Source: Halichondria panicea
Lineage: Eukaryota
Length of the DNA: 64,000 bases
Assembly: GCF_963675165.1 (NCBI RefSeq)
Contig: NC_087384.1
Location: 2,678,315-2,742,314, forward strand
Direction of reading: 5' to 3'
The translations under genes were made by a program, and so were the position numbers. The notes beneath the pieces were generated by a model that was not told the DNA's origin, searched no databases, and worked only from the letters and a program-made list of their open reading frames with translations. This document shows positions 1 to 59,500 of the stretch, one piece after another; within the stretch, counting starts at the first letter, position 1, and each line of letters begins with the position of its first letter.

Positions 1-124
1 TAGAAACTCTTACTTGCACTTCATTGATCCTTGAGCAGCTGAAACAGTCTACACACACAGACACACACACAGACACACAAACACACTACCGTATACCTCG
101 CTTGCGCATGCGCACCGAGGCATA
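1..124 (-). mobile_element. MITE family A copy, truncated by window start. The 5' terminus ttatgcctcggtgcgcatgcgc lies at 124 in reverse orientation.
   Basis: Reverse complement of 1-124 matches the 5' ends of copies at 8788, 32343 and 48327, including the GCGCATGCGC palindrome, a (TG/CA)n tract and 'tagactgtttcagctgctcaaggatcaa'. Confidence 0.7.
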
Positions 125-502
125 ACAACACATTTTTTCCAAGCATGTCCCTGGGTCAGCAATGTTGCATACTAACAGGTAGAGTCTCTTAAAAACAGTT
201 GACTGATCTGAAAACTTTTAGACCCTTCCTTTCAATTTTTCAAAATTCCTGGATCTGCCACTGCGCGTGCCTCTTCTACTTTAAAATCCTGATGTATGTG
301 TCCCTTGAATATATCCCATACACATGCACCCACCGCAGGACAAGTGCCTGGAATGACACAGAGACCAAACCAAGGTAAGGTACATGTATGCCTACTTGGT
401 ATGTATTTAGTGGAAATCTGAACGACATGTTAAATTGTGTACATGCATGTCTTAAATTTCCATTTGAGTATTGTTATTAACGTTTCTGTGTGTTGTTCTC
501 GC

Positions 503-3353
503 AGGTGTCCCTGGAATGGCTCCTGTCCAGAACCCATCTGCCAGTAACTATGCGGGAGTGCATTCAGTGCAGGCCATCAGTAACCCTTCCTACACCGGAC
601 CTACCGTGTCTCAAAGCTTCTCTCAGGCTACACCAATCGGCATGCAAGTGAGTGCCTGTGGTTCTTTTATTGACATTGTGACAGTTGCTTTAACGGACAG
701 GAGTTAAAAGCGGTAATTCCTATAATGCAGTGGACCCATAATTATGCTACTTTGAACTGGTATTATTGTAAAGTGCTAAAAAGCAAATAATTAATGATTA
801 ATTATTTCGCGGATAGCCCCTTACACTACCAGAAGTATACCAAATTTCGAGTTGCATAGTTTTCGAGGTTTAGGTAAATCTGTGAAAAGACTTTATTGTT
901 GTCAACTTTGAATGCATTGGAGATGAGTGCATGTAACTCTTTGATTGGTCTCTCACATTTTGTGCAATGATTCCTTTTGGCTTCAAGTTTATCACCTCAC
1001 AATGCACACACACACACACATACAGCCCTCGTCAAGACCGGACGCTCCACCCACATCAGCACCGGCCAATATGGCTGGTGATCAATCAGGGGTTAAAGTT
1101 CAACAAAGTGGTCCCGGAGGCAATCCACCCACACCACACCCACCATCAATGCAGGGGGTAATTCGCTTATAGCTTTCAGCCTAGTACCGTATATCTTCTA
1201 ATTTATCGGACACTTCTAATTACCCGGACACTCTTTTGGGCAATTTTCGTTGTTCTAATACAACGGACACTCCAGTACTTTAATATTACATTTATTCTAA
1301 ATATCCGGACAATACCTTGAAAAGTTGAGTTACCATTCATAGACGGCAAGTAAGACTTGGAGTGCTGCAGTTAGATAGCTTTGAGTAGCTAGTTTTAGAT
1401 AGTTAGTGCAACTATTCAGTCGTACCTTGTTCTATTAAACTTAGCTAGCTCGCATGCAGCTGCTTGCTTGTTCTAATTATTCCGGACACTTCGCATGCTC
1501 TATAAAAATCTGTTCCAATTATACCCGGACAATTTCCAAAATAATTATTTTTTGCTGTCCGATAAATTAGAAGATATACGGTAATTTGAATTATAAGTTT
1601 AATGATTCAAGTATACATGTAGGATAGTTACGTACATACGTTGAGCATACGCACCACACACAGTGTGTGAATGTGTTACAAGTTGTTATCCACACACGTA
1701 CACAGGGTGTGCCATCTCCTGCCCCGCCCACACCCCTACTGCCAGCGTCCCCAGCAACCAGTGGTGTTGGAAGCCCTGCACAGCAACCATCCATCACCCC
1801 TGAGGAGAACGAGGTATACATGAGGAAACTGGCCGAGCTACAAAAATACATCCCCCTTCTGCAAAAGTGGATCTCAAAACTCACCAAAGAGGATAGAAAC
1901 AACCAGTTGCCCAAACTGAAGCAGCTCTACAGCCTTCTCTCCAGCAATAACAAAAGGTGTTATTTCAACATTTGGTTGTTATCATTATATGCAGCACATT
2001 AATGAACCCTCTGGCTACTACATGTATCCTTGATTGATTAGAACAAGCTCACTGTTTGTGGATTTTGTATATTCATTGCAGGGTGCCTATATCCACTCTA
2101 ATGCGGTGCGGAGAGGCACTGGACAAGATGTTCAATAATGACCAATCGTCTCGGGAGTCCCACTCGTCCTTCTCGGACCCCACCACCCCTCAGGCTAGAC
2201 CCCCTGTAACTACCCCCCACAGTGAGCCAGTCGTACCACAATCTAAACTCGTGGAGCCTCGACACTCACCCTCCCTCCTCGAGTTCAAGAGAGTGCCCTC
2301 ACCCCCGTCCAATTATGAGTCTCTGCTGGGGGCCATTCACACTCGACCCCTACCTCCTGAGAGACTACCCCCTGCCAAGAGAATGTGTAATAGAGGTGTG
2401 ACTGCACACACCATTGTTTATTGTTTGCAGTGCCTTAAAAAATACTTCTAACCTCATTCCTACATAATAAAAAAAATAAGAGTCACACTCTTCTTGCACA
2501 CTCTTCTTTTTTTTATGTACCTGTAGGAATGAGGTTAGAAGTATTCACACTCTGAGTGTAGAGTACTGTACTAGTTCTTATTGGATGTGCTGGGCATAAT
2601 ATTATTATTGTAACCACAAATATTTAGTTTGCCTTCAGGGGTTATCACGCTCGGACTGTTCTTGTATAAATGCAGTACACTCAGAGGTTGGTTGCAAGTA
2701 TAATTATTGCATTCATATTTACAGATGAGCCATTGATTCCGTTTGGGCTTATGAGAGAATTGGCAACCATCTCCAAGGTGAAGGTTAAGCAGTTTCCGAG
2801 TGAAAACAGATTTGACAAGTCCACAATACTTCAATGCGCTCTAGGTAGGCATATCCGCACACACTGTAAATTGAGTTTACACAATCATTCTAATCACATC
2901 TTACATGTACATGTACTGAGCTGTAAGAATAGAACACGAAGCATTAAACTTGGCAGTATACAAAAATGTGTACCAACGAAAATTACTCACTATATACTGT
3001 ACTTACATTAAGTAACTCAACTTTCCCCACGCACATAATTATGTAGTTCATTGCCTAGTAACCCAGAGGTGACCTATATTTTTGTACACAAAGTTTTTAT
3101 TTGGGACCTGGGTGCCTGGCCTTGATATCATAATGATTTGACAATCGATGGTCAGTCAAACTTTTTATACATAAACGTACTAGCCATCATGATTTATCTC
3201 CATCACACACCCACACCCACACAGATGATGATGGTCTCTACCCTGTACCTCCGCTTACAATCCGTATACCCTCCAACTATCCCCTTGTCTCCCCTGTCTG
3301 TGACCTCACCTCCTATCACACCTCCACCAACTCCACACTTGTCATGGAGGTAG
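503..3353 (+). CDS. MED15: Mediator subunit 15 (MED15)-like gene, 3' portion only; the 5' exons (KIX domain) would lie upstream of the window. Approximate exons are 503-648, 1027-1157, 1706-1967, 2092-2394, 2724-2846 and 3225-3353 (stop).
   Basis: Exon translation ...EENEVYMRKLAELQKYIPLLQKWISKLTKEDRNNQLPKLKQLYSLLSSNNKR followed by VPISTLMRCGEALDKMF resembles the conserved Med15 block (KYIEPLRRMINKIDKNEDRKKDLSKMKSLL...KRCPLKTLQKCEIALEKL). The exons are Pro/Gln-rich and bounded by AG/GT sites. Confidence 0.4.
1187..1581 (+). mobile_element. MITE family C copy with TIR ccgtatatcttctaatttatcggacac ... gtccgataaattagaagatatacgg.
   Basis: About 26-bp terminal inverted repeats are read directly. 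Paralogous copies occur at 23381, 24028 and 54730. Confidence 0.75.
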
Positions 3354-3905
3354 GGCGAACTCTGTCCGAGCGACTTTCCCGAAGTGTCCACACCTACTCA
3401 CTCTCGTCTCTACTCTCAGACTGGGAAATGTGTGTGCTTAGAGCAATGTCAAATCAACTATTAACTTCTGATGCTAGTTTATAGTCAATGATATTCAGAT
3501 TAATTTCTCATAATTATTAAAATGTAGGTACTTGAATTGGTTACTACTATTATAATTATGTGCACACTATACCACAGTAACGAAGATAGAGCACACAATA
3601 ATTCAGTTGCTAATTTTGCTATATAATTATAGATCTATGTACATGTAGTAGATTAATTATTGATCTGTGCAATGATCTGTGACAAAAATGCTTTGCATAA
3701 TTTTTGTTGCGCATGCGCATTAGTTCTCCCTCGTGGCATAATTATAGTAAAGAAATAATTATCACTGAAAATATTCTAAGTCCATATATTCCAGTCTCAG
3801 TGGTCTAAGCAGGGTGCAGTGGTAAGTGATAAATGTGTATAATTATTATAATAATTATTATGTTTATCTAGCTCACTAGAATAAAACTGTGACTGCAATT
3901 TAAAG

Positions 3906-3918
3906 GGGGGGGGGGGGG
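3906..3918. repeat. Poly-G homopolymer (G13).
   Basis: Direct read. Confidence 0.9.
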
Positions 3919-5221: not shown

Positions 5222-5330
5222 GAATTATAATACCGTATAGAGGGTAATTTTTGTGGGGCAAAATATTCGGGGTTTTCGTGGTTGAAGGTCTGACCACGAA
5301 TATTTTACCCACGAATGAAACGAAAAATCC
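5222..5330 (+). mobile_element. MITE family B copy (ccgtatagagggtaattttt... / ...ccacgaatattttaccc).
   Basis: Shares the CCGTATAGCGGGTAATTTTCG-type terminus and the internal CACGAA motifs with other family B copies. Confidence 0.55.
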
Positions 5331-5445
5331 TCAACCATTTTAATCGTTACGACGCAGTTCTCTGTAAACATTTTCAGCCACGGCCGTTATTCGAAAACAT
5401 TATATTGTCATTTGACAGCGTGCAGTGACTCGACAAGTACCGTAT

Positions 5446-5520
5446 AGCGGGTAATTTTCGGGGGACAAAATATTCGTGGTTCAGCAATATTGAGACATTT
5501 TGTGGGTAATATTTTCGTGG
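5446..5520 (+). mobile_element. MITE family B partial copy.
   Basis: accgtatagcgggtaattttcggggg... terminus. Confidence 0.5.
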
Positions 5521-5575
5521 TTGCTGCTTGGATTGTAGGTAAAGGTACTGTGTTATAGTACTATAGATCTATACT

Positions 5576-5803
5576 ACCGTATAGCGCTTGATTTTCGCGG
5601 ATTTTGTGGGTTAGAATTCTACACGAAAATTAAGTACTCGAAAATTTTTCTTTAATTAGAATTACCTGCTATAACATGCAAAGATTTAAAGGCGTGGCTT
5701 TCGGTAAGCTGTCATTCCGCGAACATTGTGCAATGAAATGGCTTTTAGAGGCCAATCCACGAAATATAAGTGCCTCGAAAATTTAGCGCTATACGGTATC
5801 AGT
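5576..5803 (+). mobile_element. MITE family B complete copy with TIR ccgtatagcgc ... gcgctatacgg.
   Basis: Both termini are present. The internal sequence is near-identical to the copy at 57721-57915 (aaaggcgtggctt.cggtaagc...cttttagaggcca.tccacg.aatataagtgcctc). Confidence 0.75.
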
Positions 5804-7108: not shown

Positions 7109-8190
7109 CTTCACCGGGAAAAACTGTAAAAACATAATTATAGTCTAACACATTTAACTTTGCATTTAATCATAATACAAGAACTTATGTATAATCTCAA
7201 TTTTCTTTGTATAAGATTGCATAATCTGCTTCAACTAACAAGAGAAAACTCTTGGTACTAAGTAGAGTAGTCTAATAATGAATAAGTTTTGCTATTATGC
7301 ACTCTCTTCTGAAAGGCCAAAAGGCTGCAATGGCAGCAAAAACAAGTAGGCATAAGTCGAGTACCTCCTTATTTTTCAAATCCACTAGGTTAATCCAAGA
7401 CAGCAATGTAGTCAACATTTTTTTTGTAAGATATGCATATAACCAAGGTAGCTCAAATGGCTAGTGTGAAGACTTCCCCTGGATAACACAAAAACCAAAA
7501 AATTAAGATAATTATAAATAAAACTATACTGAGGGAAACAGCAAAAGAGCTATTGATAACTTCTTGTGGTAAAGAATTCCATTTCTGTATTAATTTTTAC
7601 ATCCAGAAAAAAGGAATATTTGTGGGATGAGGTGCCCACATTTGGTTGTGTGGATGACGGGGAGAAGGGGATGGGTGGGGTGAGAAGACAGCTAGTGGGA
7701 GGAATACAGGATTTGTTGTTGATGATTTTGAAGCATACTTTAAATATTTGGATATTCCTGATTTGAATTGGAGTTTTTAGGCTGAGAGATATTATAGTCA
7801 GAATTCCATTCTTTGGTTATGATTTTGCAGGCAAATGATTGGGTATATATTCTCCTGTTTCTTGGTGAGTGTTGATTGATTGGGGTCCCATGCAGTATTC
7901 AAGTAGGTAGCACAGTGCTGCTGTAGCTTTGCATGATTGCTGTGATGCATCTTTTAATTTCCTGTGGAGCAATCCCAATTCAGTGTTGTTTGGATGACTT
8001 CACAGTGTTGGTAATGTGCTGAAGCCAGGACAGATTCTTAGAGATGGTGACACTGAAACATTCCACAATGGGGATTTGCTGGTTTGAAAATGAGAGGGTG
8101 AGTGGGACTAGAAGCATGACTAAAAATAATGATTAGAAGCCTGCATGTAGAACTTTCATTTAACACTACTGATCTTTGACTAGCTGTATA

Positions 8191-8345
8191 GCGGGTAATT
8201 TTCGTGGGGTAAAAAAATCATTTATCTGGAAAACAGTGATTTTCGTGAGTAGAAATTTCGTTTAATCTCGTTGCCTGCACTGCATTCAAACGTTATGCCA
8301 CGCCTACGTTAACATTTCGTGAAGGTCAGCTTGACCACGAAAAAG
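8191..8345 (+). mobile_element. MITE family B copy.
   Basis: ctgtatagcgggtaattttcgtgggg... with the shared internal motif 'ttgcctgcactgcatt' also seen at 10868 and 35238. Confidence 0.55.
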
Positions 8346-8787: not shown

Positions 8788-9340
8788 TTATGCCTCGGTG
8801 CGCATGCGCAAGCGAAGATACGATAGTGTGTTTGTGTGTCTGTGTGTGTGTGTAGACTGTTTCAGCTGCTCAAGGATCAAAGTAAGAGTTTTTATAGGCT
8901 TCTAGTCATATTTGTGGATTTGCAAAATAAAGCTTCGTTCTCGAGTTGAGTTTTGCTTACTTTGAATGCCATTGCAGCCTTTTCAGAAGAGTCCGTAGCA
9001 AAACTTGTTCGAGTGTTGCTACTCTACTTAGTAGTTAGCTCTGCACTAGAACGCTAGCTATTGGTAGCTGCAAGAGTGAGAAGAGAGCTGAGCTGCAAGG
9101 CTCTGCTGACTTGCAGCCATTACTTGAACTTTTGGCATCGATCGTTTTTAAACAATCATCGTCCTCGACGATTACCCACTCTTTGAGTTTCCCTGTGATT
9201 CTGGATTCTGCATGCAGTAAAATTAAAAATGTTCATCATGATAATTATAATCAATGTGTGTATAAAAGCTAGCTATTAGTAATTTTATGTTATATGTAGC
9301 TTTGGCACCTCCACCGAGGTATCAGCACCCGCGGTGCTTT
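8788..9340 (+). mobile_element. MITE family A complete copy (about 550 bp). TIR atgcctcggtg ... caccgaggtatc, with an internal GCGCATGCGC palindrome and a short (TG)n.
   Basis: Full-length alignment by eye to copies at 32343-32975 and 48327-48872; the termini are inverted complements. Confidence 0.8.
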
Positions 9341-9672
9341 CATTAAACTAGTTCCTATTATTCAAATTGTAAAAAGGCTGCCTATTCCAGAATATTTGGC
9401 TCAGGTATATATATATACTCAGTGCTCAAATCAGTTACCATGCAGGAATAGGAGAGAAGCTATAGCAAATTGAAGTCACTAGAAAGAAGACTGAGTTATT
9501 TGAGCCAAAGATGCAAATCAAATCTTATTTGCAGCACTATACTGCAAATAAGATTTGATTTGCATCTTTGTATATTGCATATTGCACCCGTGCGCTCATG
9601 CAACAAGTTAACTAGTATACTGAGGGTGGAGCTATACTCAGGAATGTAACTCCAAAATTGTATAAAATGTGA

Positions 9673-10867: not shown

Positions 10868-11055
10868 ATACTATTGTATAGCAGGTAATTTTCGTGTAGT
10901 GAAAAAATTCGTTTAACTCGAAAATGGTGAGTAAAAATTTCGCTTGACTTCATTGCCTGCACTGCATTGCATGCGTTCCTGTAAGCCATGCCTTGCAAAA
11001 TTTGTTGTGGAGGCCAGCTTGCCCAACGAATATTTTACCCCACCCGCTATAATTA
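10868..11055 (+). mobile_element. MITE family B copy.
   Basis: Termini tgtatagcaggtaattttcg ... cccgctataattacacgg; internal 'cattgcctgcactgcattgcatgcgttcc'. Confidence 0.6.
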
Positions 11056-11100
11056 CACGGTATATTTTCCAATCCATGATGCATTGCCACGATTGAAATT

Positions 11101-12732: not shown

Positions 12733-12830
12733 TGTAGCCTCGATCCCAAGCCGCACTTCCCACTTCACTTAGGGAAGGCCGGTGAAGGAGGCTAGATGTT
12801 ATGTACCTTTGGCATCTCCACCGAGGCATC
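12733..12830. mobile_element. MITE family D hairpin copy (gcctcgatcccaagccgcacttccc...).
   Basis: Shares tagcctcgatcccaggccg termini with copies at 13384, 22566, 25960, 33760, 40690, 45750 and 46890. Confidence 0.5.
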
Positions 12831-13140
12831 AGTAGTCCATGTTATCGACCTAGCGTTCAAATAGAAAACGGTTAGGCTGACTATTGGGTACTACCTGATT
12901 CTTCCAGGTACTACCTCAAAAAAGGAATTTCACACCTATTAAAACGGCAATAAAAAGCAATTGGCAATAGTGTGCAAAAACAAGAATAAAATGTGAGTGC
13001 AAAAAGCTATAAACTGCATATAATATATACAGAAATAAAATGTGAGTGCAACAGCCTATAAATTTAAAGTGGGTACTGCTCAGCTATATTTTCTAAAAGT
13101 TTTTCAAGTAAATCCAATGCTCCAAACCTTCTTCCAGAGC

Positions 13141-13996
13141 CTCCAAGTAGAGACTTTTTTTTCAGTATTAATCAGCTCATTTTTCCGTATTTAATGATGA
13201 TTTTCAGTACAAAACATGGAAATGAGATGAAATGCTGTTTAGTGGCTTTGTAATTGCCCCGCCCCTTCAATAAAGGGGCGTGACAAGCGAGACTACGAGA
13301 GCCTAAAGACAGGAATTATGTCCATGAACTTTGACCTTATAATTAAATTTTTGTCTGTGATGTGGGGGCGGCTCAAGAAGCACTAGCCTCGATTCCAGGC
13401 CGCTTGAACAAGGCCTTGTTCAAGCGGCCTGGAATCGAGGCTAAAGAAGCACATGAAACTTTAAATCTTCAATTAATACTAGATCTAGTCTAGTGCAGAT
13501 CCATACAGGGTATTAAAATTAATGTGCTCATGCATCCCAACATGTTGTAAGACTATTGAAATGAATACAGCAAACATTGTTTTATTGCACAAAAAACAAT
13601 CATTATTGTGAAAGAACATTCTGCCGTTTGTGTTCGCCTCTTCACTTATGAGGCAGAGCAGTCTGATTTGTCCTATAGCCTCGGTCCCAAGGACAATGCT
13701 ACAATAGCCCCAGTAGAACTCCACTCAAAATTTGAATATGTAGATCTACTCAGTGTAGCACAAGCCACACAGTAATGATGCACAGGAACATGGGTATTAT
13801 TCTTTCACAATAATGATTGTTTTTTGTGCAATAAAACAATGTTTGCTGTATTCATTTCAATAGTCTTACAACATGTTGGGATGCATGAGCACATTAATTT
13901 TAATACCCTGTATGGATCTGCACTAGATCTAGTATTAATTGAAGATTTAAATACGGAAAAATGAGCTGATTAATACTGAAAAAAAAAGTCTCTACT
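13141..13996. mobile_element. Composite foldback element. Outer arms are 13141-13200 / 13930-13996 and inner arms 13468-13625 / 13790-13945. A family D 60-bp perfect palindrome is nested at 13384-13443.
   Basis: Arms are reverse complements on direct reading. The nested palindrome is tagcctcgattccaggccgcttgaacaaggccttgttcaagcggcctggaatcgaggcta. Confidence 0.75.
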
Positions 13997-14004
13997 TGGA
14001 GGCT

Positions 14005-14300
14005 CTGTAACTTGTTCAGAATCACCGAGTGTTGCTACTCTACTTAGTAGTTAGCTCTCAGTCTGCACTAGAACACTAGCTATTGGTAGCTGCAAGAGTG
14101 AGAAGAGATTGGTAGCTGCAAGAGTGAGAAGAGAGCTGCAAGGCTTGCAGCTCTCTTCTGAAAAGGCTGCAATGGCATTCCAAGTCAGCAAAACCAGGCA
14201 TAACTCAAGAACGAAGCTTTATTTTGCAAATCCACAAATAGCATGCCAAGAAAACATGACTAGAAGCCTATAGAAACTCTTACTTGCACCTCATATAACA
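14005..14300 (-). mobile_element. MITE family A partial or rearranged copy.
   Basis: Contains gagtgttgctactctacttagtagttagctct...gctgcaagagtgagaagag and the 5' end agaaactcttacttgcac. Confidence 0.6.
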
Positions 14301-14591
14301 GCCAGGCACCCAGGTCCCAAATGAACAGTTTGTGCACTCTCAACAAGGCCACATCTGTATAAAGGCCAAAACATTGCTCCCCAAAGGTGTCCGTTATAAA
14401 GAGGTTCCAATGTACTGAACTCATTGTATTTTGCGTAGATCTACATGTAATGTTATAATGTTTAGACCTTGCCATGTCTTGAACATACATTGCAAAATCT
14501 GTTTTGTATGTTTTAAGCGCACGAGTCCTATAGGTACATTTTATACTTTCATTGCGGTAACAATATCATTATAAAATATATTTCCCCCCTA

Positions 14592-14822
14592 GCTATTGGT
14601 AGCTGCAAGAGTGAGAAGAGAGCTCTGCAAGGCTCTTTTACCATTATTTAGACTTTGGCATCCTTAGCAACAATCACCATGGATCATTTCCCACACTTTG
14701 TGATTCTGCGCAGGCAGCAAAATTAATGAATTATCATGTGTGTATATTTATAACAACAATGATGTTTATGTTATGTATGTTAGGCACACCCACCGATCAG
14801 CACCCGTGGTGCTATTGTTCTC
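14592..14822 (+). mobile_element. MITE family A partial copy (3' half).
   Basis: ctagctattggtagctgcaagagtgagaagagagct ... cacccaccgatcagcacccgtggtgct. Confidence 0.6.
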
Positions 14823-23230: not shown

Positions 23231-26200
23231 CTGTGTGAACAGCAATGAGTGGAAAATGGTACATGGTGAACGTCATGCAATAGTCTAAGAATAAAACAGT
23301 CAGCCATTTTATAAGCCGTCTACGTTAAAATCTATATACGATTCATTTCAGAGGCCTAGCTTACATTGAGTATCTTCTAATTTATCGGACAGTTCTTCTA
23401 ATTAGCCCGGACGCTTTTCTGGGCAATTTTCATTGTTCTAATACAACGGACACTCTGGTGCTTTAATTTACTAAATATCCGGACAATACCTTGAAAAGTT
23501 GAGATACATTCCAAGCAACGTAGCTTTTATATAGCCAGCAAGAGTATTGCAAGTTAGATAGCTTTGAGTTTTAGGATAGTTACATTAGTGCAACTAGTTA
23601 TTCAGTCGCACACTGTTCTAGCTAGCTTGCATGCAGCTGCATGCTTGTTCTAATTATTCCGGACACTTCGCGTGCTCTATATATATCTATAAAGATCTGT
23701 TCCCCGGACAATTTCCAAAAAATTATGTTTTACTGTCCGATAAATAATTAGAACATACGTTATATACCCCTTAAATACACATCCCGATCTATGGAAATGT
23801 AACAAAATACATTGTACCGCATTGTCCGTATAGCAGGTAATTTTCGTTGGTACACATTTTCACATGAATTAAATTATTATGTATTCTAAATAATTGTACA
23901 GCTCAAGATAGTGACATAGATACTATTGCAGAAGAATAATTTTTCGCAGTTTTAATTTTGGGATACAACACGAACATTTCCACCATACGAAATTAACCAT
24001 ACGCTATACAGTAAACTGTCTGTGTTACCGTTAATATATCAGACACTTCTAATTACCCTGGACATTTTTTCTGGGAAATGTTCATTGTTATAATACAGCG
24101 GATACTCGTACTTACATTAGTCTAAATATCCAGACTATAGGCTACCTTGAAAAGTTGATAGCTTTGAGGATTAACTACTCAGTCGCACACTGACTTAGCT
24201 AGCTCGCATGCATTTGCATGCTTGTCTAATTATTCCGGACACTTGGCGTGCTCTATAAACATCTGTTCCAATTACACCCGACAATTTCCTTATTTTTTGC
24301 TGTTTGATAAATTAAAACATTATACGGTTCTTACTTTCTCTTCGTTGGGGAGGTCATCTTGCTTGAGTGGAAACACCCGAACAAACTTGAAACTCTCTGT
24401 CACAACGTAGAATGGCTTGTTAAGCGTTTTGGCCATTACAGCAATCTGATACGTCCCGATCTATGGAAATGTAACAAAAAATTATATAGCGCCAAATTTC
24501 CGATGCGCATCACTTATGCTTTTCACAGATTGATTTGAACCTCGAAAAATATGCACCTCAAACTTTGAATTCGTTGTATACATGTACTTCTGGTAGTGTA
24601 AAAAGGCTATCCTCGAAAAAGAGCAATCTGCAAAATCCTCGAAAGTTTGGCACTATACATAATAGTTATAATAATTATAACTATTATAAGAGTGCAGTAG
24701 TAAGAGTGTTCAACTGTTACATTGTAGCTAGAGCTGGACACAATAGACAGCACTGACGACACTACTAGACAACCAAGTTTATTCTATGCTTCAGCTGTCT
24801 GTTTTGCTGTCTGTTTTAACTGATAATGAAAGCACCGCGAGTGCTGATGCCTCGAAAACTATACACACATTATATCATGATGAACATTTTTAATTTTGCT
24901 GCATGCGGTAGAAATCCAGAGTCCAGGAATCCCAGGGAAACTCAAAGAGTGGGTAATGATCGATGATGATTGTTGTTAAAAACGATTGATGCCACTAAAA
25001 TTAATGGCTGGATCAGAGCCTTGCAGCTCTCTTCTCACTCTTGCAACTACCAATAGCTAGCGTTCTAGTGCAGAGCTAACTACTAAGTTGAGTAGCAACA
25101 CTCGGTGAACAAGTTTTGCTACGTACTCTTCTGAAAGGTTGCTAGGCATAACTCGAGAATGAAGCATTATTTTACAAATCCACAAATACCAATCACACAT
25201 TATATCATGATGAACATTTTTAATTTTGCTGCATGCGGTAGAAATCCAGAGTCCAGGAATCCCAGGGAAACTCAAAGAGTGGGTAATGATCGATGATGAT
25301 TGTTGTTAAAAACGATTGATGCCACTAAAATTAATGGCTGGATCAGAGCCTTGCAGCTCTCTTCTCACTCTTGCAACTACCAATAGCTAGCGTTCTAGTG
25401 CAGAGCTAACTACTAAGTTGAGTAGCAACACTCGGTGAACAAGTTTTGCTACGTACTCTTCTGAAAGGTTGCTAGGCATAACTCGAGAATGAAGCATTAT
25501 TTTACAAATCCACAAATACCAATCCAAGAAAACATGACTAGAAGCCTATAGAAACTCTTGCACTTCATTGATCCTTGAGCAGCTGTAACAGTCTACACAC
25601 ATGCACACACAGACACACAAACACACTACAGTAACTGTATACCTCGCTTGCGCATGCGCACCGAGGTATAATAAGCCAAGCAACAACCAATGCAAAGAGA
25701 AAGATTGATGGGCGTGGCCTGCAAACGTGAAGAAAGCCAATACAAAGAACGTTGAAAGCACAGCGCTTGAACCAAGGAAACTCCTGAGCATCTGTAAGAG
25801 ACTGTGTGTTGTTAACTATTAGCCTCGGTCCAAAGTGTTCGATTAGAGAAAAACCAGCCTGGTCGAAAAAAGGCCTGGTGTCTATTGCATGGGTGATAGC
25901 ATAGATAGTAGAGGAAGGGGATTGGAAACGGGATCACGTGAGCTTATGCTTGCATAGCCTCGATCCCAGGCCGCACTTCCCACTAGGGAAGTGGGCCTGG
26001 TATCGACTGCTTGCGCATGCGCTAATATCCCCCCGGTATCTGGGGGCTTTGGATAACATCGTTTATGCTCAGTAAAACTATGACATCACAACGAAAGGAA
26101 GTGGATTGAAGGAAGTAGATAGAAAGTTCGATTGAAGGTTTCTAGCCCATCGGATAGCATTCTCTGATAGCTACCCTTAGCCTGCTATGTTAACAAAAGA

Positions 26201-32376: not shown

Positions 32377-32462
<86 letters not shown>

Positions 32463-35400: not shown

Positions 35401-35950
35401 TTACCCCACGAACATTTTACGGTGCTCATTGCTCACATACATGTACAACTGTATATTTTCGGATTCATTGCCTTTGCTTTTTTTTAACACTTAACACAGT
35501 GTAATTTTTATCTTCAGATGCTATTCAATTGTCTGAAGCTACAACAAGCAAAGAAGGCAGCTCGCTCAACCTCAGCACTGGTGACAGTAATATTCAAATC
35601 AAAGTTCAAACTTCCAAGAAAAGTAAAATGTACAGTCTGTCTAAAGTAAGTACACATAGAGCAAACTATTAATTGTGCATCCCCTGCTGCCGGTAGACCA
35701 TTTTGCGTAAGCCTGAAGTACACAAAATATTAATGGCTCGTTACATCTGTCATGCTATTTCTAGGCTAAAAGTTGTATTGTTGCTGTAGACTGACCCCCT
35801 GAAGAAGGCAATGGAAGCTTTTGCTAAAGAACTGGATGTGGCAGTGTCTAAGCTGTCATTCTCATTTGATGGAGACCCCATCTCACCATTGCAGACAGCT
35901 CGTGATTTGGACATGGAGAATGAGGACTGCATTGACGCTAGATACTCATG
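31317..35950 (+). CDS. NFATC2IP (NIP45) / Rad60 / Esc2-like gene: acidic Ser/Asp-rich N-terminus plus two C-terminal SUMO-like domains. Approximate exons are 31317-31607, about 31907-32040, about 34259-34432, 34990-35148, 35514-35640 and 35790-35950 (stop).
   Basis: MDDDILSF...SSDSSDSNDEDE...ISDSDDSDLESGSK. SLD1: ITLRVRYRGNICRFTINK / ...ANRFLLSHKTTTLSVSESPLSLGLTTADIIG. SLD2: NIQIKVQTSKKSKMYSLSK / TDPLKKAMEAFAKELDVAVSKLSFSFDGDPISPLQTARDLDMENEDCIDA. This is the di-SLD architecture; some exon phases are unresolved. Confidence 0.5.
32343..32975 (+). mobile_element. MITE family A copy with an expanded (TG)n tract.
   Basis: ttatgcctcgatgcgcatg(tg)n tagactatttcagctgctcaaggatcaatgaagtgcaa ... caccgaggcatcagcacccgcggtgctttc. 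Confidence 0.8.
32359..32459. repeat. (TG)n microsatellite of about 50 units, inside MITE A.
   Basis: Direct read. Confidence 0.95.
33170..33795 (+). mobile_element. Long family D element, the forward-orientation partner of 25795-26540.
   Basis: Shared internal sequence (gctatatagctagctag..agagacagag, gggcgtggcctgt) and termini (gcgcaaacagtcgata...gcggcctgggatcgaggcta). Confidence 0.65.
35238..35425 (+). mobile_element. MITE family B copy.
   Basis: cattgcctgcactgcgttgcatgcgttccggtaagc...ccccacgaacattttacggtg. Confidence 0.55.
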
Positions 35951-37248: not shown

Positions 37249-37264
37249 CACACACACACACACG

Positions 37265-39494: not shown

Positions 39495-50212
<10,718 letters not shown>

Positions 50213-53500: not shown

Positions 53501-56500
53501 CTCGTTGTCCTTTAGGAACCACCTTTTTATAATTTCTGGATCCGCCACTGGATGCAACTTTACTCTGCATCTTCTTGAAGCATTCTTACTCGTGCGTTAA
53601 GTGACAGACAGCTTATACTAAGTATATGTACGTTGAGTGTGCAGGTACATGTATGTAGTATACGTACTGCAAGTATAAATTCATGTATATATTTCTACAC
53701 TGATCCACCCCAGATCTCAAGATGGAGGACTCCCACAGCAGAAGAGCAGTCAGGTTACAGCAGCTGAGGCTGGTCTCCAAGGTGAGTCTCATCACGATAT
53801 GATCGTTATACTGCATTTCCTTATGCAGCAATGAGTATCTTTAGACCCCTTCCTCCCACCGTTACATGCATGCACAGCATCTCTCGAATTTTCATCTCGC
53901 GTTACCCAGTAGTGTTATTCAAATGAATTTGTCAGCTGCCGTGATCGTCTAGAGGTTAGGACATTACGTTGTGGCCGTAATAACCCAGGTTCGAATCCTG
54001 GTCACGGCATTCTTTTTGCAACTCTACGCAAATTAACTACACAAACGTACATATGCATACAATGCATCTCTCTACACATTCACAGATGACCTCCAAAGAG
54101 CTCACCAACAAGCTACACATAGACTCATTCAATGCAACTCTGTGGGAGGAAGAGGTGTTATTCTGGTACAAGTACGCTCGAGAAACTCTTAATAAGATTA
54201 AAGTAAAATTGAAATCACGACAAAAAAAGAGCAGTCATCAATCACAACAAAATTCACCGAACTTAATATCATATTTGTTCAAGCTACCGTTGTCAGTAGT
54301 AACCAGTTTTGAGTCTTCTGATTGGTCGATTCAACTGCATTCTGAGGCACCAGCCTTACAAGCCAAAGAGCCATTATGTCGTATTGTTATGGCAACCTGT
54401 GCTGGTAACGTGCAGTGGGACTCATCTGAGGTCAACAAATCCACACTCTTAAAGTAAGCAGTTTGTGATTCATCGTGTACTATGTACAGTGTTAACCAGA
54501 ATTTGCCGCCAACGTTGTATCAATTATCCGAGATTGAGCACTCTTCTACAGTGTTTATGCACAGGGCTGGTACCCTGACCAGGCAGTACCTAGCCTCTAG
54601 AGTTGTAGACATAGATGAGTGTACCAGGCATTGAGCACTATAATTATGTAGAAATATTAGTTAAATACATACATGCACACTGTAACTATTATCATAGAAG
54701 TACATGTACAAGCTAGCACTCTCACTAGCTGTTTATAAATATCTTCTAATTTATCGGACACTTCTAGTTATCCCAGACACTTTTCTGGGCAATTTTCGTT
54801 GTTCTAATACAGCGGACACTTCTGAATTTTTACAAATATCCAAGCATTGTAGCTTTATAGCCAGCAAGAGCTGCAATTAAGTAGATAGCTTTGAGGATTG
54901 ATAGATAGCTATAGTGCAACTTTTCAGTTGCACATGCACTGTTACTCAGCTAGCTCGCATGTAACTGCATGCTTGTTCTAATTATTCCGGACACTTTGCG
55001 TCTATAATCCGTTCAGGGACAATTTCCAATTTTTTGCTGTCTGATAAATTTATACAGTACATGCAACTGTACGCTACACTTGTACATGTGTAGCTGTGTA
55101 TATGCATGTGTACACTAACTTAGTAACCCCCCCAATGACTCACAGGTCATCGCTTCGTCTGGCCAACGCCTACCTCCATGTACCTGGCTACCACCCGACT
55201 GTTGATAACCCCACATTCTTCCGACAGCGACCCGATAACCCTCAAGCCCTTCCCTCATTGCATAGCCACCTTTGGGGGAGGGTTATCTCGATAGGAGTGC
55301 TTGTCCTCAAGAGTGAGAGGGAGGTGCAAGTTTCAGACAAAGATTGGGCGTGGCTTGGTGATGAGGGTGTGTCTGTGAGGGGAGAGGGAAGCAGTGTGAT
55401 GCTGGAGTGGTCTCAACCAACAGTGGTTGCCATGGTGAGGGTGTTGGAGCATTTGAAGACAAATTATGGGATGTTTAAACATGAGGGGCGGAATGAAGGA
55501 GGTGGTCGAGACAAAAAGAGCACGGAACGGATGAGCAACCTACCACAAATAGACTTGGAGTTGCAACTCACAGACATCAATCTGTTCCTCTATGCCCTCA
55601 CTCCAGGTAAATAACAGTGGGGTCCCATGCGTTATATTTCCATAAGCTGCTTGCCTTTATTTTCGATTAATTTTATACTGTAATAGGTAATATTACATTA
55701 CGTACCACCGTAATTATTGTATCTCATTAAATTTATGTCATAATAATTATTATCATCTTCAAATCCTAATAACATGTAATTGCGCAATCATTCCAGACAT
55801 GCAGTATTCACTGTTACAATGTGCATCTCACCATGCCCCCCCACAGAGCCCCCCACACTGATGGTGCGTCTAGACGCTGGCTCCCTCTCCACGACCCCCA
55901 GTCCCTCTCTCACCCTACACCGCCTCCTCCTGGACGACATGCACCTCTCATCGTTCACGCAGGTAGATTATAGTTGTATCATGAATGCATTCTACAAGCT
56001 ACATACCTCGCTGAAAGTGTCATGCACTTTCTGGTCTTTATCACTATTGCCAGTAGGCACCATCAATTTCCTACATGTAGCCAGACTGCATGTAGCTACG
56101 TTGCTTCTGCGTTTTTCACATACCATACTTTTCCTACATCCATATTTTGTAGAAGATCTACGTGACTAAGTCAAGTACAGTGTACATTTGTATCTACATA
56201 ATGTCATGGAATCATTCTACACATATAGTACATGTACAGGATCAGGAGTGCATGCACTCCTTTACATGTACCAGTGTACTTTTGTACTTTTGTAGATAAT
56301 GTTATCTGATAACCATTGCATGCAGCTGCGTATCGCATGCTGGCCAGCAAGTTTGCAACTTTCCTTCTCTCCACCTTTGCAAATGCTAATGGCACCTTCT
56401 GTACTGTAGGTGTTTGTCTGCTCTGACACTGCCAACCTCCCCCATGGAGCAGGAGTGCTCTGTGTGGGATCCACTGGGATCACTTATGACCCCCAAATTC

Positions 56501-59500
56501 AGGTGAGCTTCATTACATGTCCTCAGGTGCTGGCTAGGCTGCCATTGACTAATTCATTTGTGGGATGGCGGGCTCCTATACATGTACTTCACTGGCTGTG
56601 TATAATCAATTTTGCTTTTTCTGTGTTTCTATTATTTTGTGGAAGGCATTTTTAATGCATGTACTATTTGAGTAATGTTTTAAACTATTGCACGTTTCTT
56701 TTGTTTGTGCGTACATGTACAATATACAAGACACACTTATCCACTTGTAGGATGTGAGTTTGACACTGACTGACGTCACAGTGAGCTGGTCCACCACTGC
56801 CCATCGCTGCATCTTCAGGGCCCTCACCTGTCTACAGGAGAACACCACCATGCTGAGAGGTCAGCCTCCTTTCATATACATGATTGTACATGTAGTACGT
56901 GTCAATAATACATACCCTAAATATATGTATTATTGTTGCGATATAAGATTTGATCTTGATCACGTTCTTGTGTGCAAGCTGGTCTGTACGTGAAGAATGC
57001 TTTTGTGCTGTTTTTAATACAGCTACGACGTCCCACCCGATCTGCTACTGGTGCTTGTTAAGTATTAATTACCTTCGTATGACTTTTCGCTGCTGCAGGT
57101 GTTCTTGGAATAGCCCCCACTCCTTCCCCTCGGACAGCTAAAGGGGAGATGGTTGCCGTGGGTGATGTGATGCAGGGTTACCTGCAGAAACTACCAGTGT
57201 CTCTGAATGTCCGTGTTAACAAGGCCAACTGTGTGGGACAGCTGGACAAGAGGATAAGGTGTGTGTGGGGGAGGGGCAGTGGTGGGAAGGGGATACTATT
57301 CATGTGCATACATTGTACCTTATGCTCACTTATGATTTCTCCACATACTTTTAGTGTGCTATAATATTATGCTTAAAATGTGCATAAAAGCTTGTCTCAA
57401 CATAGTCTCAAAATTAATACATAGCTGCTACATGAAGGTGTACAATTTAAGTAACATACAATCCAAAGAGTGTGTACTTCACTCTCTACCCCCTCCCTGC
57501 AGAGTGTATATGTCTCTCACCAACATCCAGTCCAGTGTGAATGGCGGTGTCTTTATGACCAGCTCTCAAGAGATCGCGGTCACTTTCGACCACGCCAGAA
57601 TTATGACTCTGTTGGAGTTCATTACTCGATTCCCTCAGCAGGAGGGCAAGATGGTGGAAGAGAGGAAGGGACTCAAATACCAGCTGCAACAGCAGAGCAA
57701 CTCTGTCCTGTGAGTGATGCCCTTATACCGTATAGCGCGAAATGTTCGAGGGGCTTAATTTTCGCTGGGTCCACGAAATTGATTAGCTGCTTTAATATTA
57801 AAGGCGTGGCTTCCGGTAAGCAGTCAACCCACAAAGATTATGCAACGAAATGCTTTTAGAGGCCATTCCACGGAATATAAGTGCCTCAAAAATTTCGCAG
57901 AATACGGTACTTCAGTAAAATAATATTGCTTTTAGCTAGGGAACTAAAAAGTGTGTAAAGTGTGTGTGTGGTTTTGCAGTAAATGGTGTGGATTGTTCGG
58001 GTGATTGATCAATGCCATTGTGGTGTGAGTTATGTGAGCTGTAATGTAGTATTGTCAATTAAGGTAGCAAGCGTGTAATAAGAGTCATACAGTCCCTTCC
58101 GTTTTTTCTGTGTTCACGTAGCCTCAGTGTAAATTTGGTAAAGGTTGTTACGATATAAAACACATAATATATAGCTTGATACCGAGTGTTGTATGAAAAA
58201 CTACCCGAGTTACGTGAGAGACACTGCATTATGGTAGTTGTCATGTGACAGGGTGTGGCAATGATGGTGTTCCACGTGATAGGAGCTCACACCACTGAGT
58301 GTGTGTGTGCACTGATCTGTAGCAATCAATACTGAGCCACTACTCAGGAGCAGCGAAATTCCGCTTTAATTAATTTTTGCTTGTATCAAATTTGTATTGA
58401 AGTTTCTAGTACATGTATGACTCGTGTAATCAAGTTGAAGGTTGTTTACGTACATGTATAATTTATACAGATGTATGTATATGTATACTCATAAGTATCA
58501 ATTTTGGACCACACTACCACAGGTGGTTGCAGGCGTATCGACTGGACCTCATCTTTCCTCACGACTACAACTTCTCTCTCGCCTATGACAAGGTACAAGC
58601 CTACTTGGCAGAATTTTAGAATTTTAGATTAAGTTTTATCTCATCACTTCCCATACAGCTGTACATTGTTCATTGTATCTCCCGTGCAGCTGACTAATGT
58701 GAGGAAGTTTCTCCAGAAGCTTCACTCTGGTTCCCCTGGTAACAGTGACCCCTCCATACGGTACCTTCTCCCTGACGTCTCCGCAGAGTGTGAGGATATT
58801 GTGCTACAAGTCAGCGATGACCCATTCGAGATGAAGCTTAGAGCTAACTACGAGGTGGGGCTGGTATCAATGGGGTGTGGGAGAGGGTGTGGCTAGTATT
58901 GGTATATATATATATATATATAGGTAATAATTACTGGCAGAACTGTGCATGAAAGTGGGGAATTGAGCTAGGATACTCCTTCAGTTGCAAGCTAGTGGGT
59001 TAGGGTTACTAGGGTAGGGCACGTGTACGGTTACAGGCAATTCGGTATAATATGTCAGTTGTATGGATTAGGAATTTACATGTATAATGCATGCACATAT
59101 GGATCATCTTGATTTGGCTTATACATGTAGCTAACTATTCCCATCCACCTCCTTTTCTAACCCCACCCCCTCCAGCTGTTGTGTGACGAGGCAAAGGAGA
59201 AGAGCAAAAGACGAGAAGCGTTTGAGGAGAAACTGAGCCAAGTCCGACAGGAACAGGGCGTCACTGCCGTGTCAGGTGACTACACTCATCCCCATATAAT
59301 CCTTGTAGTGTTAATTGTAGTAGTTGCATGTACACAGTGCATACTGTAAGTGTCCCTCCATTAACTGTTTACGTAAATCAGAACTGCTAATGCTTAGCTG
59401 TGTGGAGTAAAGGCTTGAAAGAAATTTATTCTGAATGCTCAAAATCTCAAGTTGCAAAATCTGCCTTTTAAGAATATATACTGTAATGTACTAACACGTG

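What the first reader, a model, noticed from the sequence alone, without database searches (positions are those of the whole stretch)
1..57915. Several MITE families share CCGTATA-type termini and carry the GCGCATGCGC palindrome; together they dominate intronic and intergenic space
Family B (TIR CCGTATAGCGGGTAATTTTCG), family C (TIR CCGTATATCTTCTAATTTATCGGACAC) and the 5' region of family A (..GCGCATGCGCAAGCGAGGTATACGGTAG..) all contain a CCGTATA core at or near their ends. Copies are often bounded by TA/ATA, suggesting a shared transposase source with TA(TA) target duplication. Families A and D and some B copies embed the perfect palindrome GCGCATGCGC, the vertebrate NRF1-site consensus, 11 times in this window. 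That would distribute a putative transcription-factor site near genes. More than 30 copies of these short elements lie in 64 kb, many within introns of EIF2B1, RAB35, UBE2G1, NFATC2IP-like and BLTP2-like genes.
Basis: seen in the sequence. Interest (0 to 1): 0.55.

Follow-up and report, generated by a model that had tools for sequence, protein, structure and literature searches.

The report
Three unrelated short transposon classes
This stretch of breadcrumb-sponge (Halichondria panicea) DNA holds about 30 copies of short non-coding mobile elements, but they belong to at least three unrelated, already known kinds of transposon, not to one family set sharing a single enzyme, so this is a useful re-annotation and not a new phenomenon.

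Summary
The window is Halichondria panicea nuclear DNA. The repeats are real: about 32 copies or fragments covering 9.4 kb (14.6%). That is conspicuous but does not dominate the window.

They fall into three classes:
1. Families B, C and a new family E are TA-flanked MITEs whose ends read TA|CCGTAT(A/T). B is a deletion derivative of a pogo-type transposon. Full 2.7-2.9 kb elements in other assemblies have the same inverted ends, TA flanks and a DDE_1 transposase. Six paralogous empty sites show TA duplication.
2. Family D has different ends (TAGCCTCGATCCCAGGCC) and a 9-bp target duplication in 8 of 8 cases.
3. Family A has no TA duplication. It has the anatomy of DINE-1/HINE (Helitron-like group 2) elements: 11-nt subterminal repeats, a 5' hairpin, an internal (GT)n tract, a 3' stem-loop and T-T boundaries. 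Its 'CCGTATA' is the hairpin arm complementary to the TATRCC start.

Beyond the terminal heptamer, the B, C, E and A sequences are not significantly alike.

GCGCATGCGC occurs 8 times, not 11: four in A, two in D, one in a B copy, one unassigned. It is strongly over-represented. It is a known sponge promoter motif (NRF-1), but function here is untested.

The parts
5577..5796 (.). Family B MITE, complete (220 bp). Ends CCGTATAGCGC..., TA on both sides.
5233..5316 (+). Family B, left half only, TA-flanked end.
5440..5524 (+). Family B, left half only. Exact 21-nt end. 93.6% identical over 47 bp to the end of the pogo-like element in L099.
2954..2999 (.). Family B solo end fragment (TA|CAGTATATAGTGAGTAATTTTCG).
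8184..8342 (.). Family B, partial copy of subfamily B3.
10876..11054 (.). Family B (subfamily B3), complete, about 179 bp.
23826..24011 (.). Family B, complete, about 186 bp, lying between two C copies.
35254..35416 (.). Family B3 fragment with one end (CCGTAAAATGTTCGTGGGG), upstream of the Rad60-SLD exon.
40336..40511 (.). Family B3 copy (176 bp). Shared by other H. panicea individuals.
40518..40848 (.). Family B2 copy (331 bp), TA both sides. Carries GCGCATGCGC at 40739 and a D-type end at 40689-40706. Lies about 320-830 bp from the Ras exon.
49326..49528 (.). Family B, complete (203 bp), degenerate ends CCATATAGCTGG.
57728..57907 (.). Family B, complete (180 bp), TA both sides.
1187..1581 (.). 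Family C, complete (395 bp). Ends CCGTATATCTTCTAATTTATCGGACA, TA both sides. Internal TTCTAAT..CGGACA repeats.
23371..23757 (+). Family C, older copy with mutated ends.
24032..24327 (+). Family C, copy with an internal deletion.
54739..55057 (+). Family C, older copy.
32051..32268 (.).
1..125 (-). Family A (HINE-like), 5' part cut by the window edge. Palindrome at 104.
8788..9344 (+). Family A, complete (557 bp). TTATGCCTCGGTG...hairpin...(GT)n...CACCGAGGTAT...stem-loop...TTTCATT. Palindrome at 8800.
24825..25671 (-). Family A, complete, with a perfect 331-bp internal tandem duplication. Palindrome at 25650.
32362..32977 (+). Family A, complete. An expanded (GT)n tract has overwritten most of the 5' hairpin and the palindrome.
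48327..48874 (+). Family A, complete (548 bp). Palindrome at 48339.
14024..14813 (.). Old, rearranged family A copy. Its 3' stem-loop is kept with a changed loop (AGCACC-CGT-GGTGCT).
12796..12832 (+). Family A 3' fragment.
25955..26483 (.). Family D MITE. Ends TAGCCTCGATCCCAGGCC, 9-bp duplication ATGCTTGCA. Palindrome in both arms (26013, 26449).
33203..33776 (.). Family D MITE, 9-bp duplication GATAACAGC. Both palindromes decayed. Present in another individual (L124).
12735..12795 (.). 61-bp D-type mini-MITE, 9-bp duplication GATGTTATG.
13384..13443 (.). 60-bp D-type mini-MITE (perfect palindrome), 9-bp duplication AAGAAGCAC.
45756..46939 (.). 1.18-kb element with D-type ends. One-mismatch palindrome at 46874.
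3709..3718 (.). The only GCGCATGCGC not assigned to a repeat copy. Weakly resembles a D-like element (L068).

Best explanation
The window is Halichondria panicea nuclear DNA. It carries old, fixed copies of at least three mechanistically unrelated classes of short non-autonomous DNA elements.

(1) B, C and E are Tc1/mariner-superfamily MITEs that insert at TA and duplicate it. B is an internal-deletion derivative of a 2.7-2.9 kb pogo-type transposon. That transposon encodes a DDE_1 transposase, which would cut and paste B copies in trans by recognising the shared ends. C and E share only the terminal TA|CCGTAT(A/T). They were probably moved by related but different transposases. This last step is inferred.

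(2) D and its mini-derivatives have ends TAGCCTCGATCCCAGGCC and make 9-bp duplications. They depend on a different, unidentified transposase, possibly Mutator- or Merlin-like.

(3) A is a DINE-1-like HINE, a non-autonomous Helitron-like group 2 element. It is presumably copied by a rolling-circle Rep/helicase and inserted between T and T without target duplication. Its 'CCGTATA' arises because the 5' hairpin arm (CGAGGTATA) is the complement of the conserved TATRCC start.

The palindrome GCGCATGCGC is carried independently by A (hairpin loop), D (both subterminal arms) and one B subfamily. In one sponge-metagenome lineage it also sits about 78 bp upstream of the pogo transposase ATG. The most likely reading is a host NRF-1-type promoter motif, or a structural palindrome, carried along passively. 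No effect on host genes has been shown.
For: Organism: exact protein matches to H. panicea RefSeq entries.

B:
- 224 ends were found in the window plus 120 sponge-metagenome contigs, and 203 are preceded by TA.
- 60 complete copies measure 156-382 bp. TA lies on both sides in 45 of them, and there is no further direct repeat outside the TA.
- Six paralogous empty sites carry a single TA exactly where L039 has TA-element-TA.
- The terminal 86 bp of the L099 element are mostly 83-97% identical to the ends of B copies in the sponge-metagenome contigs (most full-length matches 90-96%), and it continues into an ORF hitting Pfam DDE_1 at 34 bits against a cut-off of 22.
- Intact relatives (465-479 aa; DDE_1 53 bits in the two scanned here) sit in complete TA-flanked elements with CC(G/A)TATAGCGGG ends: L135 2896 bp, L137 2722 bp, L141 and L142.

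D: a 9-bp duplication in 8 of 8 elements, including one nested inside an A-like head in L115.

A:
- Boundaries TTATGCCTCGGTG...TTTCATT in 4-5 copies.
- No TA and no other duplication.
- 11-nt subterminal repeats.
- A 5' inverted repeat 13 nt downstream.
- An internal (GT)n tract that varies in length.
- A 3' stem-loop one nucleotide after the 3' repeat.
- These are the published HINE/DINE-1/HLE2 features, and DINE-1 subterminal repeats also start TATACC.
- No Rfam or tRNA-like match.

TIR comparison: no significant similarity after the heptamer.

Age: insertions are shared by other individuals' assemblies.
Against: - No autonomous pogo copy was located in H. panicea itself.
- The host of the VSKX01 metagenome contigs (GCA_008849205.1), which supplied most B statistics, the empty sites and L099, is not identified. 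The two proteins checked do not link it to H. panicea at >=90% identity.
- The HINE assignment of A rests on structure in only 5-6 window copies plus diverged heads in other contigs.
- No empty site and no Rep/helicase partner were found for A.
- Its subterminal repeat (11 nt) and the distance from the 3' repeat to the end (22 nt) are at or below published ranges (12-16 nt; 38-60 nt in mites).
- The 5' hairpin is not thermodynamically exceptional (z -0.3), and the 3' stem-loop is degraded in one copy.
- TACCGTATA in the A head is a 9-nt match to the pogo-type terminus. That is improbable as pure coincidence, so an ancient link cannot be excluded.
- A and D share the 14-mer GCTTGCGCATGCGC, which is unexplained.
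Confidence: 0.78

Rival explanations
1. One reading: A, B and C (and D through the palindrome) are sister MITE families moved by one shared transposase that recognises CCGTATA ends and duplicates TA or TATA.
For: - TA|CCGTAT(A/T) is shared by B, C and E. The string TACCGTATA also occurs in the A head.
- CCGTAT outside family B is preceded by TA in 45 of 142 cases, above expectation.
Against: - In A the string is internal and points outward.
- A copies have no TA duplication and have HINE structure.
- D has other ends and 9-bp duplications.
- Sequence after the heptamer is not similar between B, C and A.
- The internal subterminal motifs differ: AATTTTCGKGG in B against TTCTAAT..CGGACA in C.
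Confidence: 0.08
2. Family A is an ordinary cut-and-paste MITE whose true inverted ends are ATGCCTCGGTG. It is not a rolling-circle HINE.
For: An 11-nt perfect inverted repeat lies near both ends, extendable to about 24 nt at roughly 80%. DINE-1 itself was long classed as a MITE.
Against: - No target duplication at any of four complete copies.
- The 3' repeat is 22 nt inside the end and is followed by a conserved stem-loop, whose loop changed while the stem was kept in the old copy at about 14790.
- T-T boundaries, an internal microsatellite and a TATRCC start match published HINE/HLE2 features.
Confidence: 0.17
3. The short elements are fragments of one larger composite repeat.
For: - B is indeed derived from the ends of a larger pogo-like element.
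- Elements often abut or nest: 40336-40511 next to 40518-40848, and the D-type element inside the A-like head in L115.
Against: - Each family has its own boundaries, ends and target duplication.
- Neighbours differ between copies.
- Nesting is explained by insertions with their own duplications.
Confidence: 0.03
4. GCGCATGCGC in these elements is a structural palindrome used in transposition. In this reading it is part of the hairpins near HINE subterminal repeats and the D-type subterminal hairpins, not a transcription-factor site.
For: - Published HINE families have palindromes inside or next to their subterminal repeats.
- In A the motif is the loop of the 5' hairpin.
- In D it lies in both arms next to a local hairpin.
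- Its CpGs are kept no better than other CpGs in A.
Against: - The identical 10-mer recurs in unrelated classes, in an internal (non-terminal) position in B2 and L053, and upstream of a transposase ATG.
Confidence: 0.35

Closest known systems
pogo/Tigger-derived MITEs of the Tc1/mariner superfamily (for example human MER2-type elements, Arabidopsis Emigrant/Lemi1; Stowaway-like TA MITEs)
   Same: Family B is about 205 bp and non-coding, with roughly 25-40 nt inverted ends and a TA duplication. Its ends are about 83-97% identical to those of a partner encoding a DDE_1 (pogo-type) transposase with a weak Tc5-type HTH.
   Different: The terminus reads CCGTATAGCGGG instead of the common CAGT start (from my own knowledge). 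The autonomous relatives carry an antisense HIRAN-Ulp1 protease ORF. The partner has not yet been found in H. panicea itself.
DINE-1 / HINE, non-autonomous Helentron or Helitron-like group 2 elements (Yang & Barbash 2008; Thomas et al. 2014)
   Same: Family A has subterminal inverted repeats starting TATRCC within 2-3 nt of the 5' end. A second 5' inverted repeat is partly complementary to the first. It also has an internal microsatellite, a 3' stem-loop just after the 3' repeat, T-T boundaries, no target duplication and no ORF.
   Different: The host is a sponge. The repeat is 11 nt (published 12-16). The 3' repeat is only 22 nt from the end. The hairpin loop is the NRF-1-type palindrome. No Rep/helicase partner has been identified.
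MITEs with 9-bp target duplications (Mutator-like or Merlin-like)
   Same: Family D has 18-nt ends, long subterminal inverted repeats, a 9-bp duplication in 8 of 8 cases and 60-70 bp mini derivatives.
   Different: The superfamily is unresolved. The ends do not resemble any terminus I can name, and no partner was found.
Transposon-borne transcription-factor sites (for example CTCF sites in rodent B2 SINEs, p53 sites in primate ERVs)
   Same: A strong consensus site for a conserved factor is embedded in multi-copy elements scattered near genes.
   Different: No binding, accessibility or expression evidence exists here. The copies are few and old.

Membership tests
pogo-type (Tc1/mariner superfamily) MITE - family B | TA target-site duplication | tested here: met
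   203 of 224 ends are preceded by TA. TA lies on both sides in 45 of 60 complete copies, with no extra repeat outside. Six paralogous empty sites carry a single TA. The empty sites come from the VSKX metagenome host, not proven to be H. panicea. In the window itself, about 13 of the 16 TA-type element ends visible in the listing are preceded by TA.
pogo-type (Tc1/mariner superfamily) MITE - family B | Terminal inverted repeats shared with an autonomous element | tested here: met
   The terminal 86 bp of L099 are mostly 83-97% identical to B copy ends in the sponge-metagenome contigs, and 85-94% to the two window left halves (5231-5320 and 5436-5481). Complete elements L135, L137, L141 and L142 carry the same CC(G/A)TATAGCGGG ends.
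pogo-type (Tc1/mariner superfamily) MITE - family B | Partner encodes a pogo-type DDE transposase (Pfam DDE_1, Tc5/CENP-B-type HTH) | tested here: met
   DDE_1 scores 34.1 bits for L099 and 52.7-53.1 bits for P0018 and P0023, against a cut-off of 22. HTH_Tnp_Tc5 is weak only, at 17 bits, below cut-off.
pogo-type (Tc1/mariner superfamily) MITE - family B | Autonomous partner present in the same genome (H. panicea) | not testable with these tools
   None of the eight loci fetched came from an H. panicea assembly.
pogo-type MITE - families C and E | TA duplication, inverted ends and a matching autonomous partner | tested here: inconclusive
   TA flanks and perfect ends are seen for one intact C copy and the single E copy. 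There are no empty sites and no partner, and neither family has a match in the 465 kb of metagenome contigs.
HINE / DINE-1-like (Helitron-like group 2, non-autonomous) - family A | 12-16 nt subterminal inverted repeats, the 5' one within 0-4 nt of the end | tested here: met
   ATGCCTCGGTG and CACCGAGGCAT, 11 nt perfect (about 24 nt at roughly 80%). The 5' repeat lies 2 nt (the leading TT) from the boundary. This is one nucleotide short of the published range.
HINE / DINE-1-like (Helitron-like group 2, non-autonomous) - family A | Stem-loop just downstream of the 3' repeat, near the 3' end | tested here: met
   AGCACC-CGC-GGTGCT begins one nucleotide after the repeat and ends 6 nt before the 3' end. 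It is intact in 3 of 4 copies. The old copy near 14790 keeps the stem with a changed loop. Fold z is -2.96 for copy 8788.
HINE / DINE-1-like (Helitron-like group 2, non-autonomous) - family A | Second 5' inverted repeat partly complementary to the 5' repeat; internal microsatellite or tandem repeats | tested here: met
   CGAGGTATA lies 13 nt after the repeat. The (GT)n/(GTCT)n tract varies from about 30 to about 90 nt between copies.
HINE / DINE-1-like (Helitron-like group 2, non-autonomous) - family A | Insertion between T and T without target duplication | tested here: inconclusive
   All copies start TT and end TT, and no flanking direct repeat is seen. No empty site was found.
HINE / DINE-1-like (Helitron-like group 2, non-autonomous) - family A | Rep/helicase partner with the same termini | not tested
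   I had no query protein and no genome access. A scan of prokaryotic genome contigs for the A head found nothing.
9-bp-duplication MITE (Mutator- or Merlin-like) - family D | Constant-length target duplication and inverted ends | tested here: met
   A 9-bp duplication in 8 of 8 elements: window 12735, 13384, 25955 and 33203, plus L020, L074, L113 and L115. The 18-nt end was found at about 45 places.
9-bp-duplication MITE (Mutator- or Merlin-like) - family D | Transposase of the named superfamily | not tested
   No partner was found. The superfamily label is inferred from duplication length alone.
tRNA/5S/7SL-derived SINE (considered for A) | RNA-gene-derived head | tested here: not met
   The only Rfam or ARAGORN hit in the window is tRNA-His at 53937-54010.
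NRF-1 binding site | Match to YGCGCATGCGCR and over-representation | tested here: met
   8 exact copies against 0.01 expected and 11 more in 465 kb of contigs. The motif is reported in Amphimedon promoters.
NRF-1 binding site | Occupancy or regulatory effect | not testable with these tools
   No chromatin or binding data are available here. CpG retention in A shows no excess.

The most novel reading that the evidence does not exclude
Three unrelated transposon lineages in a demosponge have each independently acquired and kept the methylation-sensitive NRF-1 palindrome. The lineages are pogo-type, a 9-bp-duplication MITE and a Helitron-like HINE. In one pogo lineage the motif sits in the transposase promoter region. 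This would suggest that sponge transposons exploit a host promoter factor to stay transcribed or unmethylated in a CpG-depleted, probably methylated genome. As a by-product they would seed NRF-1 sites through gene-dense regions.
Probability: 0.12. Interest if true: 0.65.

Novelty: new member of a known kind. Interest (0 to 1): 0.3.

Why it matters
Sponge transposons are poorly catalogued. My full-text searches found no paper describing these families.

The result gives curated boundaries, target-site signatures and a partner type for several abundant H. panicea elements. It shows that a DINE-1/HINE-like rolling-circle element type probably exists in Porifera. It also warns that grouping families by a shared short motif can merge unrelated mechanisms.

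The recurrent NRF-1-type palindrome in unrelated elements is a cheap hypothesis to test with methylome or ATAC data. If it is functional, it would bear on how early-branching animals wire promoters and silence transposons.

Tried and rejected
- Presence/absence polymorphism as a route to boundaries. The ENA contig L001 is the same individual (99.92% identity, no indels). L122 and L124-L132, from other individuals, are collinear and carry the same insertions. No empty alleles were found.
- tblastn with Mos1, Sleeping Beauty and CENP-B sequences written from memory against the window plus contigs gave nothing. The pogo ORF in L099 was found only by ORF inspection and Pfam.
- Solo B ends were searched for a long shared interior. 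Only one ~500-bp variant appeared.
- Rfam and ARAGORN for an RNA-derived origin of A gave no match.
- Test for selective retention of the palindrome's CpGs in A: no excess, 9 of 10 against 80% overall.
- A PDB sequence search with the transposase found no hit.
- A scan of prokaryotic genome contigs for the A head found 0 matches.
- Attempt to prove the VSKX01 contigs are H. panicea: not achieved. Statistics from those contigs are therefore labelled as coming from a sponge metagenome of unidentified host.
- My first impression that the B and C ends are similar beyond the heptamer (TAATTT.TCGG) did not survive a shuffle test.
Full report
**Origin of the window.** Three long ORFs of the window are exact matches to proteins in the public collection, and two of them are annotated Halichondria panicea RefSeq proteins (XP_064392532.1 TRIM71-like, XP_064392742.1). 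They lie on a 7.09-Mb contig. The window is therefore nuclear DNA of the breadcrumb sponge. GC is about 40% and CpG o/e is 0.57. Pfam context includes RBR/ubiquitin, PARP, two TRIM-NHL genes and Med15. It also includes Rad60-SLD, UQ_con and Ras exons.

**The observation.**
- The B end is found 10 times at <=3 mismatches, with 0 expected.
- The C end is found as an inverted pair.
- CCGTATA occurs 18 times against 3.5 expected.
- GCGCATGCGC occurs 8 times, not 11, against 0.01 expected. With one mismatch allowed there are 15.
- Self-comparison shows 10.3 kb of the window repeated within itself.
- A library-based census gives about 32 copies or fragments of five families covering 9,360 bp, or 14.6%.
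- '>30 copies' is therefore fair. 'Dominate' is not.

**More sequence.** A scan of metagenome contigs with the B end returned 120 contigs (465 kb) of GenBank WGS VSKX01/VSKW01, assembly GCA_008849205.1. They clearly come from a sponge that carries B, A-like and D-type elements.

I could not show that the host is H. panicea. A NAE1-like protein from these contigs has no H. panicea member in its 90% cluster. The TRIM71-like cluster holds several H. panicea assemblies but no VSKX contig. Families C and E have no match there, and A matches only at about 80%. I therefore treat these contigs as a related sponge source.

**Family B is a pogo-derived TA MITE.**
- Of 224 ends, 203 are preceded by TA.
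- Sixty complete copies measure 156-382 bp, with a mode near 205 bp. TA lies on both sides in 45, and there is no further direct repeat outside it.
- One copy (L039) sits inside another repeat. Six other copies of that repeat have a single TA at exactly that point, so TA is duplicated on insertion.
- Contig L099 ends in an exact B end. Its first 86 bp are mostly 83-97% identical to B copy ends (most full-length matches 90-96%).
- After about 110 more bases an ORF begins (MALWRYFGK...). It has two in-frame stops and is cut by the contig edge. It hits Pfam DDE_1 at 34 bits against a cut-off of 22. L054 holds a second copy of this end at 92% identity.
- A protein search found 1,410 relatives. Among the 120 best listed, most are 390-510 aa, and one is an Amphimedon 'DDE-1 domain-containing protein'.
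- Four fetched loci hold complete TA-flanked elements of 2,722-2,907 bp with CC(G/A)TATAGCGGG ends. The inverted ends are identical at 29-30 of the first 30 nt in L135 and L137, and more diverged beyond the first ~18 nt in L141 and L142. They encode a DDE_1 transposase and, on the other strand, a HIRAN-Ulp1 protease ORF.
- None of these loci is from an H. panicea assembly, so the partner in this species is still to be found.
- Window B copies number 12, in three subfamilies.
- Those near the Ras exon, and the D copy at 33203, are present in other individuals' assemblies (GCA_022599525.1, GCA_020423275.1 and Logan runs). These insertions are therefore old and fixed.

**Families C and E.** C (4 copies, one intact at 1187-1581) and E (32051-32268) are TA-flanked with perfect ends that start CCGTATA or CCGTATT. 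After the heptamer, the ends of B, C, E and the A head are no more alike than shuffled sequence. Only B-E reaches p=0.02. Their internal repeated motifs also differ. A shared terminal cleavage motif within one superfamily is plausible. One shared transposase is not supported.

**Family D is a different class.** Its ends are TAGCCTCGATCCCAGGCC, followed by a local hairpin and, in one subfamily, GCTTGCGCATGCGC in both arms. This end occurs at about 45 places in the sample. Eight of eight complete elements have 9-bp duplications:
- window 12735-12795: GATGTTATG
- window 13384-13443: AAGAAGCAC
- window 25955-26483: ATGCTTGCA
- window 33203-33776: GATAACAGC
- L020, L074 and L113
- L115, nested in an A-like head with duplication GGTATACSG

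**Family A is HINE/DINE-1-like.** Alignment of five copies fixes the boundaries at TTATGCCTCGGTG... and ...GCACCCGCGGTGCTTTCATT. There is no flanking duplication. The anatomy is:
- TT, then the 11-nt repeat ATGCCTCGGTG.
- A loop holding GCGCATGCGC, then CGAGGTATA (the complement of the start), then CGGTA.
- A (GT)n/(GTCT)n tract of about 30-90 nt, followed by the body.
- CACCGAGGCAT, the inverted copy of the 5' repeat.
- One nucleotide later, the stem-loop AGCACC-CGC-GGTGCT, and finally TTCATT.

These are the features that define DINE-1, HINEs and Helitron-like group 2 elements. The published features are:
- subterminal repeats of 12-16 nt;
- a second 5' inverted repeat;
- microsatellite or central repeats;
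- a 3' stem-loop just after the right repeat;
- insertion between T and T with no target modification.

Drosophila DINE-1 repeats also begin TATACC. Several A-type heads read TATACCTCGG. Diverged heads with the same layout occur in L015, L036, L069, L110 and L115.

The 'CCGTATA core' in A is thus the hairpin arm plus CGG, not a terminal repeat. The caveats are:
- the number of copies is small;
- no empty site was found;
- no Rep/helicase partner is known;
- the hairpin energies are modest;
- TACCGTATA is a 9-nt coincidence with the pogo-type terminus that I cannot fully dismiss.

**The palindrome.** Of the 8 copies in the window:
- four are in A (104, 8800, 25650, 48339);
- two are in one D copy (26013, 26449);
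- one is inside the B2 copy (40739);
- one is unassigned (3709).

The 465 kb of contigs hold 11 more, mostly in D-like, A-like or B elements. One of these is in L099. There it lies about 146 nt from the element end and about 78 nt upstream of the transposase ATG. The autonomous relatives from other assemblies lack it.

An NRF-1 motif is a reported core-promoter motif in the demosponge Amphimedon, which has an NRF-1 gene. It is listed among methyl-sensitive factor motifs at that sponge's unmethylated promoters.

Within A, the palindrome's CpGs are retained in 9 of 10 cases, against 80% for other CpGs, so there is no signal of special constraint. Published HINEs also carry palindromes beside their repeats, so a structural role is a live alternative. 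A and D share the 14-mer GCTTGCGCATGCGC, which I cannot explain.

**Verdict.** The repeats, the TA|CCGTATA ends of B and C, and the over-representation of the palindrome are real. The unifying interpretation is only partly right.

There are three known kinds of elements here: pogo-type TA MITEs, 9-bp-duplication MITEs and a HINE-like rolling-circle element. None is a new kind of system. The recurrent NRF-1-type palindrome is the one aspect worth a follow-up with methylome or accessibility data.

Noticed in passing
L135:4507-5505(-), L141:4499-5527(-), L137:4462-5487(-), L142:4514-5506(-): The complete pogo-like elements carry a second ORF, antisense to the transposase. In L135 and L141, scanned here, it has HIRAN and Ulp1-protease (Peptidase_C48) domains above Pfam cut-offs; for L137 and L142 only weak precomputed HIRAN hits are on record. 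I know Ulp1-like ORFs from plant Mutator and CACTA elements, not from pogo.
   Followed up: partly
window 27636-28180: A 545-bp foldback-like element with two 218-bp arms 98.6% complementary and a 109-bp spacer. It belongs to none of the five families.
   Followed up: no
window 13135-14007: A long inverted-repeat element of about 870 bp with roughly 210-bp arms at 97-98% identity. Its left arm is interrupted by about 265 bp, which includes the 60-bp D-type mini-MITE at 13384-13443.
   Followed up: partly
window 24864-25524: A perfect (100%) 331-bp tandem duplication inside the family A copy. It could be a recent slippage, a rolling-circle by-product or an assembly artefact.
   Followed up: no
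window 26008-26022 and 48335-48348 (also 100-113, 8796-8809, 25646-25659): Families A and D, otherwise unrelated, share the 14-mer GCTTGCGCATGCGC, and 18 of 25 positions around it. This could reflect module exchange between elements or convergence.
   Followed up: partly
L115:1300-1720: Two A-like heads lie 150 bp apart. The second is split by a 180-bp D-type MITE with duplication GGTATACCG/GGTATACGG. This is a clean nested insertion that dates D activity after that A-like copy.
   Followed up: yes
window 53937-54010 (+): tRNA-His (GTG), the only RNA gene detected. It sits about 730 bp upstream of a family C copy.
   Followed up: no
window 11105-12007: A tandemly repeated block with units of about 110 and 380 bp at 80-86% identity. 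It is unrelated to the MITE families.
   Followed up: no
window 16694-17698(-) and 18418-19500(-): Two adjacent paralogous single-exon ORFs (334 and 360 aa, multi-pass-membrane-like) with no Pfam hit. A third ORF at 9673-10686 (+) also has no hit.
   Followed up: no
L034:1-594, L056:1315-2053, window 41184-41534: Other mobile-element remnants: an rva_4 integrase core (L034) and a reverse transcriptase RVT_1 (L056). A window ORF looks to me like a non-LTR RT tail but has no Pfam hit.
   Followed up: partly
L002-L121 (VSKX01/VSKW01, GCA_008849205.1): The metagenome contigs carrying family B come from an unidentified sponge host that may not be H. panicea. If it is another species, B, the A-like heads and the D-type ends are shared across sponge species.
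   Followed up: partly
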